Shown: positions 1,247 to 1,579 of the stretch, in pieces
Layout: each line of letters opens with the position of its first letter
Position numbering within the stretch: the stretch's first letter is position 1
From: a phage
Length of the DNA stretch: 21,685 nt
Assembly: GCA_037431425.1 (NCBI GenBank)
Contig: GCA_037431425.1_4129.5
Strand: one strand, 5' to 3'
Position numbers and translations under genes: made by a program
Notes under the pieces: model-generated
What the model was told of the DNA's origin: nothing
Seen by the model: the letters and a program-made list of their open reading frames with translations, nothing else
Databases searched by the model: none

Positions 1247-1579
1247 ATGCTAAATCTAAACATTCAAGGCAACATTGATATCACTCCAGCAATCCAAGAT
1301 GCTATTTACAATGAAGCAAAAAGTCTGGATAAGTACCGTACTTCTTCAGTACTAGACATTGGTGTTCATGTTAAGAAAGAGCATAAAACTCAATATGCTG
1401 TAACTTTAACTGCTGGTAGTAAATCAGTGACTGCTGATGATGCTGATTTGTATAAAGCAATTGTTGAATCTTTTGATAAGATGGAAACTGTATTCAGTAA
1501 AGACAAAAGCATTAAATTGCACCGCCGAAACCACCCAGAACATCCAGTTCTTGATGATTTGACAGAAAACGAAGAGTAA
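1247..1579 (+). CDS. hpf: ribosome hibernation promoting factor / RaiA family protein (short HPF)
   Basis: 110 aa; aligns along its length with E. coli HPF (MxLNIxGNxxxITxAxxxxxxxxxxKLxxY ... VxLxxE ... AxL ... DxYxAI ... KxK). SD-like AGGTAGG lies 5-11 nt upstream of ATG 1247. Confidence 0.8.
   Translation: MLNLNIQGNIDITPAIQDAIYNEAKSLDKYRTSSVLDIGVHVKKEHKTQYAVTLTAGSKSVTADDADLYKAIVESFDKMETVFSKDKSIKLHRRNHPEHPVLDDLTENEE

What the first reader, a model, noticed from the sequence alone, without database searches (positions are those of the whole stretch)
1247..1579. Phage-encoded ribosome hibernation factor (HPF/RaiA) homologue
The 110-aa ORF aligns end to end with bacterial short HPF (MxLNIxGN..IT.A at the N-terminus, D.Y.AI and a K-rich tail at the C-terminus). 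HPF/RaiA proteins bind the 30S decoding region and silence or dimerise ribosomes. A phage copy in an early-type region, under a strong promoter and next to other translation-related genes, suggests the phage directly manipulates host ribosome activity. I regard this as an uncommon auxiliary gene for a phage.
Basis: partly seen in the sequence, partly recalled or inferred. Interest (0 to 1): 0.7.

Follow-up and report, generated by a model that had tools for sequence, protein, structure and literature searches.

The report
Jumbo-phage RaiA/HPF-family ribosome-silencing protein gene
The 110-codon gene is a real homologue of the bacterial ribosome "hibernation" proteins HPF/RaiA carried by a 350-kb E. 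coli jumbo phage, but the same gene is already annotated as such in public phage genomes and its role in infection has never been tested.

Summary
The ORF at 1247-1579 (+) is real and encodes a 110-aa member of the HPF/RaiA family (Pfam PF02482). It scores E=2.5e-10, above the gathering cut-off.

Corrections:
- The window is an Asteriusvirus jumbo coliphage, 99% identical to phage ph0011. There the identical protein is already annotated "S30EA"; RefSeq calls the 121Q and PBECO4 copies "HPF/RaiA family".
- Phage HPF homologues were described by Mizuno et al. 2019.
- The protein does not match short HPF end to end. A 25-residue tail (basic K/R stretch with an Arg-Arg pair, then an acidic end) resembles the RaiA architecture.
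- The nearest consensus promoter (159-186) lies upstream of the preceding lysozyme gene.
- Only a CCA-adding enzyme is a verified translation-related neighbour.

The gene is under purifying selection (dN/dS 0.12-0.28) and is syntenic in distant jumbo phages (Munch, Hallingskeid). Its last codons (D-L-T) form the -35 box of a conserved promoter for the next gene.

The most likely mechanism is RaiA-like occupation of the 30S decoding site. This is inferred, not shown. Verdict: already known; modest interest.

The parts
159..186 (+). Consensus sigma-70-type promoter (TTGACA-16 nt-TATAAT with TGn extended -10). It is the likely promoter of the lysozyme-HPF transcription unit.
   Evidence: 12/12 match. 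Sites scoring at least 11/12 number 4 on the + strand against 0.77 +/- 0.87 expected. The -35/-10 pair is conserved in 121Q, Ecwhy_1, Turkey5 and A4. Its function is not tested.
218..262 (+). Conserved 5'-leader block (TGTAGAAAGTCC) plus a hairpin, between the promoter and the lysozyme start. Role unknown.
   Evidence: The block is identical in all 7 aligned phages, including Erwinia phage Hallingskeid. It occurs once in the window. The local fold gives z = -3.0.
304..1230 (+). Membrane-anchored LysM + T4-type lysozyme gene (an alternative TTG start lies at 271). It sits upstream of HPF in the same transcription unit.
   Evidence: PF00959 E=3.1e-10 and LysM. Annotated lysozyme/endolysin in relatives. 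The adjacency is conserved.
1233..1241 (+). Shine-Dalgarno-like sequence AAGGTAGGT for the HPF/RaiA gene.
   Evidence: Read directly from the sequence. GGT/GAGG-type sites are kept in all orthologues.
1247..1579 (+). HPF/RaiA-family gene, 110 aa. [quoted passage not shown]
1559..1587 (+). Sigma-70-type promoter (TTGACA-17 nt-TATACT) for the downstream gene at 1633. Its -35 box is formed by the Leu-Thr codons of the HPF C-terminus.
   Evidence: 11/12 match. Conserved in 6 of 7 aligned relatives and present as a 12/12 site in Salmonella phage Munch. Its function is not tested.
1588..1618 (+). Intrinsic terminator: a hairpin (1588-1614) whose 3' arm runs into a U-tract (1612-1618, UUUUCUU). It closes the lysozyme-HPF unit.
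   Evidence: Minimum free energy is -12.1 kcal/mol here and -17.2 in 121Q. The stem sequence differs, with compensating changes, in EJP2 and Hallingskeid. Munch has an annotated terminator at the same place.
3671..4783 (+). CCA-adding tRNA nucleotidyltransferase. This is context only: it is the sole verified translation-related neighbour.
   Evidence: PF01743/PF12627; NF008137 E=1.6e-80.

Best explanation
The gene encodes a divergent single-domain member of the HPF/RaiA (S30AE) family. It has been inherited vertically within the 121Q/Rak2-like jumbo phages.

Shown here:
- family membership;
- purifying selection;
- deep synteny.

Inferred mechanism: the protein most likely works like E. coli RaiA (protein Y). 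Its core would sit in the 30S decoding region of vacant host ribosomes and overlap the A- and P-site tRNA and mRNA positions. Binding would use the conserved Lys29-Tyr30 pair, the basic face of helix 2 (K78, K85, K87) and the Arg93-Arg94 pair. The long tail would run towards the RMF site. Bound ribosomes would then be parked as protected, idle 70S monomers rather than RMF/HPF-driven 100S dimers.

The likely benefit to a slow-growing 350-kb phage is control of the host ribosome pool: preserving it, or keeping it quickly reusable, for instance in starved cells. The gene is probably transcribed by host RNA polymerase from the consensus promoter at 159-186, together with the lysozyme gene, and the unit ends at the terminator at 1588-1618.
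For: - Family: PF02482 is above the gathering score. PDB sequence hits are all HPF/RaiA.
- Fold: the AF2 model (pLDDT 77) has strands 2-8, 36-44, 50-56 and 59-65 and helices 14-30 and 68-95. The Foldseek top 35 PDB hits are all ribosome-bound HPF/RaiA/pY, with TM up to 0.70/0.80 to E. coli HPF 6h4n_x.
- Contact residues: positions named as strong 16S/uS7 contacts in cryo-EM structures (bioRxiv 10.1101/2025.10.07.680626) are kept. K29-W/Y30 corresponds to K29-Y30; K80 to K78; K87 and K89 to K85 and K87; R95-R96 to R93-R94, at the same +8 spacing from the helix-2 lysine. Most of these are invariant in the phage family.
- Tail: a basic pair followed by an acidic end is shared with E. coli RaiA and with 11 of 47 single-domain relatives. 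According to that preprint, the YfiA tail heads towards the RMF site.
- Selection: dN/dS is 0.12-0.28, and in most pairwise comparisons the tail is at least as constrained as the core.
- Synteny: the gene keeps its position in Munch (about 31% identity) and Hallingskeid (47%).
- Transcription signals.
Against: - There are no functional data for this protein or any orthologue.
- The rV5 phage HPF, from a different lineage that is 44% identical to E. coli HPF, did not co-purify with ribosomes and did not change 100S levels (PMC6375957).
- The arginine described as strictly conserved in HPF and YfiA, which contacts m4C1402 (R83), is Thr81 here. Several beta-sheet contact positions (T53, H55/E60, V62) are also not conserved.
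- The score is below the NCBIfam equivalog cut-offs: TIGR00741 scores 36.3 against 40.9, and the HPF and RaiA models score about 20 bits against cut-offs of 125 and 158.
- The profile-profile alignment to RaiA stops at residue 87. Tail resemblance therefore rests on a global alignment and on composition, and could be convergent. The core scores slightly better against HPF than against RaiA.
- Part of the tail's conservation is explained by the promoter embedded in it.
- A general translation blocker is not obviously useful to a phage.
Confidence: 0.6

Rival explanations
1. Anti-hibernation competitor. The protein binds the HPF/RaiA site weakly or transiently, or acts mainly through its tail. 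This would exclude host HPF, RaiA and RMF without itself blocking translation, so ribosomes of starved or defence-arrested cells stay available for phage mRNAs.
For: Mizuno et al. proposed this for viral HPF (PMC6375957). Loss of the R83 decoding-centre contact (Thr81) and of several beta-sheet contacts would fit weakened inhibitory binding. The RaiA-like tail points towards the RMF site. Relatives also encode an IF3 homologue that could clear such a factor (Sharanji paper, PMC11895373).
Against: Nothing shows lower affinity. The basic helix-2 face and the Arg-Arg pair are kept. Any occupant of this site is expected to exclude tRNA and mRNA.
Confidence: 0.22
2. Exapted fold. The S30AE domain is kept but no longer acts on ribosomes. 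It would bind another RNA or protein, or serve an unrelated role linked to the co-transcribed lysozyme.
For: The rV5 HPF was absent from purified ribosomes. The protein falls below the NCBIfam equivalog thresholds and has only about 27% identity to host HPF. PHROGs files it in a separate 'unknown function' family, phrog_34864.
Against: The most conserved residues coincide with known ribosome-contact zones. All structural neighbours are ribosome-bound factors. No alternative partner is suggested by any result.
Confidence: 0.12
3. A sigma-54 modulation protein or sigma factor, as several GenBank records label it ('putative sigma 54', 'putative sigma factor').
For: Only the legacy family name. 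E. coli hpf lies next to rpoN, and the annotations are seen.
Against: The fold and all solved homologues are ribosome-binding factors. No sigma-factor domain was detected. From established knowledge, the name comes from operon position, not from function.
Confidence: 0.01
4. Not a functional protein. On this view the ORF persists only because its DNA carries a promoter and terminator, or it is a dodecin-like protein.
For: A promoter is embedded in the last codons. There is a weak Dodecin hit of 19.5 bits, below its cut-off of 22.5.
Against: dN/dS is 0.12-0.28 over the whole length, including the core far from the promoter. The frame is intact in about 35 phages. The fold search gives HPF/RaiA and not dodecin.
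Confidence: 0.02

Closest known systems
E. coli RaiA (YfiA, protein Y), 113 aa
   Same: [quoted passage not shown] The length is similar (113 aa against 110). The K29-aromatic30 pair, the D-x-Y-x-A-I motif and the helix-2 lysines are shared. An Arg-Arg pair lies 8 residues after the helix-2 lysine, and the terminus is flexible and acidic: EEVEEE in RaiA, TENEE here.
   Different: Identity is only 25%, and the RaiA equivalog model scores 19.5 bits against a cut-off of 158. R83 is replaced by Thr81. The beta2-beta3 loop is three residues shorter and has an invariant basic KKEHK sequence. Homology of the tail is not statistically established. The protein is encoded by a virus, and binding is untested.
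E. coli short HPF (YhbH), 95 aa
   Same: The fold and N-terminal motif are the same (MQLNITGNNVEITEAL against MLNLNIQGNIDITPAI). The core profile score is slightly better than for RaiA (hhalign 44.1 against 36.7). The best TM-score is to 6h4n_x.
   Different: HPF ends about 18 residues earlier with a basic KHKDKLKQH. It lacks the Arg-Arg and acidic tail and works with RMF to build 100S dimers. The phage tail would be expected to occupy the RMF side.
Phage HPF homologues of Mizuno et al. 2019 (rV5-like phages, 105 aa; Cronobacter jumbo phage GAP32, 111 aa)
   Same: These are also S30AE proteins encoded by large phages. The GAP32 protein is a structural match (TM 0.74) from the same jumbo-phage supergroup.
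   Different: rV5-type proteins are about 44% identical to E. coli HPF, which suggests a separate and more recent capture. The Asteriusvirus protein is about 27% identical. GAP32 is only 19% identical and was not retrieved by tblastn. The negative ribosome-binding result applies to rV5 only.
Orthologues in Salmonella/Klebsiella jumbo phages (Munch, 7t3, SE_PL, fENko-Kae01) and Erwinia phage Hallingskeid
   Same: They occupy the same position: lysozyme, then HPF, then CCA enzyme, NUDIX, thioredoxin and macro domain. The tail design is the same (K-x-K ... K/R-R ... acidic end). Each has the same embedded TTGACA promoter and a following terminator.
   Different: Identity is 31-47%. Munch has an extra 618-nt ORF between the lysozyme and HPF genes.

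Membership tests
HPF/RaiA (Ribosomal_S30AE, PF02482) | Significant match to the family HMM above the curated threshold | tested here: met
   PF02482 E=2.5e-10, 41.4 bits against a gathering score of 23.7, covering 83 of 88 profile positions. All 13 full-length relatives carry precomputed PF02482.
HPF/RaiA (Ribosomal_S30AE, PF02482) | [quoted passage not shown] | tested here: met
   The AF2 model has elements E2-8, H14-30, E36-44, E50-56, E59-65 and H68-95. The Foldseek top 35 PDB hits are all HPF/RaiA/pY, with E down to 1e-7.
HPF/RaiA (Ribosomal_S30AE, PF02482) | Conserved ribosome-contact residues: K/Q29-aromatic30, the D-x-Y-x-A-I motif, the basic face of helix 2, and R83 contacting m4C1402 | tested here: inconclusive
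   K29-Y30, D67/Y69/A71/I72, K78, K85 and K87 are kept. The R83 equivalent is Thr81, and T53, H55, E60 and V62 are not kept. The comparison rests on a sequence alignment, not a structural superposition.
HPF/RaiA (Ribosomal_S30AE, PF02482) | Binds the 30S decoding site and inhibits translation | not testable with these tools
   This needs biochemistry or cryo-EM. The only phage HPF assayed (rV5) was negative (PMC6375957).
NCBIfam TIGR00741 HPF/YfiA equivalog | Score at or above the curated equivalog cut-off | tested here: not met
   36.3 bits against a cut-off of 40.9. The protein is a family-level member but not an equivalog-level one.
RaiA/YfiA subtype | Single domain with a long C-terminal tail carrying an Arg-Arg contact and a flexible end that antagonises RMF | tested here: inconclusive
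   The length, the RR pair at the same spacing and the acidic end are present. However, the RaiA equivalog model NF007654 scores 19.5 bits against 158, and hhalign does not extend into the tail. RMF antagonism is untested.
Short HPF subtype (gammaproteobacterial, RMF-dependent) | About 95 aa ending shortly after helix 2; equivalog model NF007780 | tested here: not met
   The protein is 110 aa, with 18 extra residues. NF007780 scores 22.5 bits against a cut-off of 125.
Long HPF subtype | C-terminal dimerisation domain (about 180-190 aa in total) | tested here: not met
   The protein is only 110 aa, no second domain was detected, and residues 96-110 are predicted to be disordered.

The most novel reading that the evidence does not exclude
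The 121Q/Rak2-like jumbo phages have kept, since their common ancestor, a private RaiA-type factor retuned at the decoding-centre contact (Thr in place of the bacterial Arg83, plus an invariant basic KKEHK loop). It would take over the HPF/RaiA/RMF site on host ribosomes. This would block host-imposed hibernation, or ribosome-directed defence, while staying removable by the phage's own IF3 homologue, giving a phage-controlled on/off switch for the ribosome pool. In addition, the tail codons double as the -35 box of the next promoter, coupling protein and regulatory constraints.
Probability: 0.12. Interest if true: 0.65.

Novelty: already known. Interest (0 to 1): 0.28.

Why it matters
Why phages carry hibernation-factor homologues is still an open question, and the only experiment so far (the rV5 HPF) was negative. 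This lineage is a better test case. The gene is old, under purifying selection, fixed in a whole jumbo-phage clade that infects E. coli K-12, and has a RaiA-like tail that gives a clear prediction: 70S stabilisation and fewer 100S dimers. As a discovery, though, it adds little. The gene is already annotated as HPF/RaiA in public records and is listed in genome papers.

Tried and rejected
- Dodecin: the weak Pfam/NCBIfam hits fall below their thresholds and the fold search gives only HPF/RaiA. Rejected.
- Gene decay in Salmonella phages: the truncated copies in SD-1/2/6/15 looked like decay. In SD-1_S14 the neighbouring lysozyme is also split into small ORFs, so sequencing or assembly frameshifts are more likely. 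Not used as evidence.
- T4-type late promoter TATAAATA: 0 matches in the window, so timing could not be assigned this way. A loose 'TATAAA' upstream of structural genes is too weak to use.
- The 'aminoacyl-tRNA hydrolase' at 6941-7318, annotated in ph0011, was considered as a second translation-related neighbour. It has no Pfam or NCBIfam support.
- Literature searches for experimental work on phage HPF/RaiA in jumbo phages found nothing beyond Mizuno 2019.
- No supplementary files of the phAPEC6 virion-proteome paper were held as text, so the full virion protein list could not be searched there, and its main text does not mention the protein.
- Profile-profile comparison did not support statistical homology of the tail to RaiA.
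- Orthology to the GAP32 protein of Mizuno et al. could be shown only at the fold level (19% identity).
- The word-index search found only 14 close relatives. The exhaustive search found 63 hits, so the family is sparse and divergent.

Full report
**Observation**

The window carries an ATG-initiated ORF at 1247-1579 on the + strand, encoding 110 aa. The ATG lies 16 nt after the stop codon of the preceding gene and is preceded by AAGGTAGGT (1233-1241).

- Pfam gives PF02482 (Ribosomal_S30AE) at E=2.5e-10, 41.4 bits against a gathering score of 23.7, covering profile positions 2-84 of 88.
- NCBIfam TIGR00741 (HPF/YfiA family) scores 36.3 bits, just under its cut-off of 40.9. The E. coli-type HPF and RaiA equivalog models score only 22.5 and 19.5 bits.
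- A sequence search of the PDB returns only HPF/RaiA/protein Y chains at E<0.3. The best is T. thermophilus HPF at 3.5e-7.

**Structure**

An AlphaFold2 model was built on 14 family sequences (mean pLDDT 77). [quoted passage not shown] Residues 96-110 are disordered. Foldseek against the PDB gives 35 consecutive HPF/RaiA/pY hits, mostly ribosome-bound, with E down to 1e-7 and TM up to 0.70/0.80 for E. coli HPF in the 100S ribosome (6h4n_x).

**Source and prior knowledge**

The first 6 kb of the window are 99% identical to Escherichia phage ph0011 (genus Asteriusvirus, 348 kb) and 86-89% identical to about 35 other 121Q/PBECO4-like jumbo coliphages. [quoted passage not shown] RefSeq labels the 121Q and PBECO4 copies 'HPF/RaiA family ribosome-associated protein'. 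Other records say 'ribosome-associated inhibitor A' or 'ribosome hibernation promoting factor'.

The Sharanji genome paper lists its 99%-identical protein among translation factors and notes an IF3 homologue elsewhere in the genome (PMC11895373). Mizuno et al. 2019 described phage-encoded HPF in rV5-like phages and in the related jumbo phage GAP32. They proposed competition with host hibernation factors, and found that rV5 HPF did not co-purify with ribosomes or change 100S levels (PMC6375957). I found no experimental work on the Asteriusvirus protein. The finding is correct but already known.

**How common the gene is**

tblastn finds the Asteriusvirus-type protein in 38 phage records, which is about as many as match the 6-kb region itself (37 records). 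A Munch-type relative occurs in 5 Salmonella/Klebsiella jumbo phages. An E. coli-HPF-like type (about 44% identity) occurs in about 129 records, mostly rV5-like 135-kb phages, plus one Xanthomonas jumbo phage. That is about 0.3% of 50,697 records. The gene is rare across phages but fixed in a few lineages.

**Lineage and selection**

An exhaustive HMM search of 1.8 billion representative proteins with the family profile gave only 63 hits at E<1e-3. The nearest relatives outside the genus (P0016-19, P0021) are 103-116-aa proteins with the same tail design. P0016 is 73% identical to the 'ribosome-associated inhibitor' of Salmonella phages Munch, 7t3 and SE_PL and Klebsiella phage fENko-Kae01. 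P0019's cluster sits on a 351-kb contig.

In Munch and in Erwinia phage Hallingskeid the gene has the same neighbourhood: lysozyme, HPF, small ORFs, CCA-adding enzyme and NUDIX. In Munch the series continues with thioredoxin and a macro domain. The gene therefore appears to predate the split of these jumbo phages.

Nei-Gojobori dN/dS against six orthologues is 0.12-0.28, similar to the adjacent lysozyme at 0.12-0.18. In most comparisons the tail is at least as constrained as the core. The apparently truncated copies in four Salmonella phage records are probably assembly artefacts, because in the one record examined (SD-1_S14) the neighbouring lysozyme is fragmented too.

**HPF-like or RaiA-like**

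In a global alignment the phage family ends ...KDKSIKLHRRNHPEHPV..DLTEDEE. E. coli HPF stops after helix 2, whereas E. coli RaiA continues ...[27 protein letters not shown]. The Arg-Arg pair lies 8 residues after the helix-2 lysine in both proteins, and both end in an acidic cluster. A recent cryo-EM preprint names R95, R96 and A97 of YfiA as strong contacts to 16S rRNA and uS7. It also describes the unresolved tail as heading towards the RMF site (10.1101/2025.10.07.680626).

The same 'basic pair then acidic end' design occurs in 11 of 47 single-domain relatives. However, hhalign does not carry the alignment into the tail, and the core scores slightly better against HPF (44.1) than against RaiA (36.7). 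The correct statement is that the architecture is RaiA-like on a core equidistant from both. It is not short HPF end to end.

Of the named contact positions, K29-Y30, K78, K85, K87 and R93-R94 are kept, and most are invariant in the family. The arginine that contacts m4C1402 (R83) is Thr81, and several beta-sheet contacts differ. The family has an invariant basic beta2-beta3 segment, VHVKKEHKTQ.

**Transcription context**

No promoter lies directly upstream of the gene. A 12/12 consensus promoter with an extended -10 lies at 159-186, before the LysM/T4-lysozyme gene (304-1230). It is conserved in four close relatives. Sites scoring at least 11/12 are over-represented on the + strand: 4 observed against 0.77 expected.

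A second promoter-like site, TTGACA-17-TATACT at 1559-1587, overlaps the end of the gene. Its -35 box is the Leu-Thr codon pair of the C-terminal D-L-T-E-N-E-E. The arrangement is conserved in 6 of 7 aligned relatives and is a perfect 12/12 site in Munch. This also explains the lower synonymous divergence of the tail in the two closest comparisons, 121Q and A4.

Immediately after it comes a hairpin with a U-tract (1588-1618). Its free energy is -12.1 kcal/mol here and -17.2 in 121Q. The stem sequence changes, with compensating substitutions, in EJP2 and Hallingskeid. The predicted start of the second promoter (about 1594) falls inside the 5' arm of the hairpin. The hairpin should therefore stop upstream transcripts but not those from this promoter; this is inference.

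The phAPEC6 paper reports a phage sigma factor and mentions no phage RNA polymerase. It also reports that the smaller of the two lysozymes is not a virion protein (PMC7247149). Both points are consistent with transcription by host polymerase and with the partner gene being an endolysin. The temporal class remains unknown: no T4-type late motif was found.

**Neighbours**

Only the CCA-adding enzyme (3671-4783) is a verified translation-related gene. The NUDIX, glutaredoxin and macro-domain genes follow it. The four ORFs between HPF and the CCA enzyme have no known function. The 'aminoacyl-tRNA hydrolase' label in ph0011 is unsupported.

**Mechanism and verdict**

That the protein belongs to the HPF/RaiA family is about 95% certain. 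The best-supported mechanism, inferred only, is RaiA-like occupation of the decoding site on idle host ribosomes, with the tail disfavouring RMF-dependent 100S formation (confidence about 0.6).

The main rival is a non-inhibitory competitor that keeps ribosomes out of hibernation (about 0.2). Loss of ribosome binding comes next (about 0.1). The legacy 'sigma-54' labels are misnomers.

The novelty class is 'already known' and the interest is modest. The small additions made here are the RaiA-like tail, the deep vertical inheritance in jumbo phages, and the promoter embedded in the tail codons.

Noticed in passing
window 1559-1618: The last codons of the HPF/RaiA gene (GAT TTG ACA = D-L-T) form the -35 box of a sigma-70-type promoter. 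Its -10 box lies 2 nt after the stop codon, and its predicted start (about 1594) lies inside the 5' arm of the terminator hairpin. The arrangement is conserved as far as Salmonella phage Munch, which has a 12/12 site, but is degraded in phage A4.
   Followed up: partly
window 218-262: A block, TGTAGAAAGTCC, followed by a hairpin lies in the leader between the consensus promoter and the lysozyme start. It is identical in all seven aligned phages, including Erwinia phage Hallingskeid, and occurs only once in the window. Its function is unknown; it could be an RNA processing or regulatory element.
   Followed up: partly
window 2713-3126 and 3113-3535: Two adjacent, slightly overlapping ORFs (137 and 140 aa) are tandem paralogues; both match phrog_20693, of unknown function. 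An 11/12 promoter-like site (3053-3080) sits in the 3' end of the first. This is the same 'promoter inside the preceding gene' layout seen at the HPF gene.
   Followed up: no
protein P0015 (representative library, not in the window): This is a 1605-aa predicted protein made of roughly 29 tandem copies of a unit of about 53 aa. Each copy matches profile positions 45-81 (beta3-beta4-helix 2) of the phage HPF family. It could be an assembly artefact or a genuine repeat protein.
   Followed up: no
window 6941-7318: The orthologue in ph0011 is annotated 'aminoacyl-tRNA hydrolase', but the protein has no Pfam or NCBIfam match. It matches only an unknown-function PHROG (phrog_14786), so the annotation looks unsupported.
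   Followed up: partly
window 1588-1614 compared with L007 1842-1868: The terminator stem in this window carries an A-C mismatch (TCTGCCCC where relatives have TCTGTCCC). This weakens the hairpin from -17.2 to -12.1 kcal/mol.
   Followed up: yes
L004 3372-3989 (Salmonella phage Munch): Munch has a 618-nt ORF of unknown function inserted between the lysozyme and the HPF homologue, with its own upstream terminator. It may be a mobile insertion into the otherwise conserved lysozyme-HPF pair.
   Followed up: no
L006 (Salmonella phage SD-1_S14) and hits H59-H63: Four Salmonella 'Asteriusvirus' records (310-326 kb) carry only fragments of the HPF gene. In SD-1_S14, the one record examined, the lysozyme is also split into several small ORFs. 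This pattern suggests frameshift errors in the assemblies rather than gene loss.
   Followed up: partly
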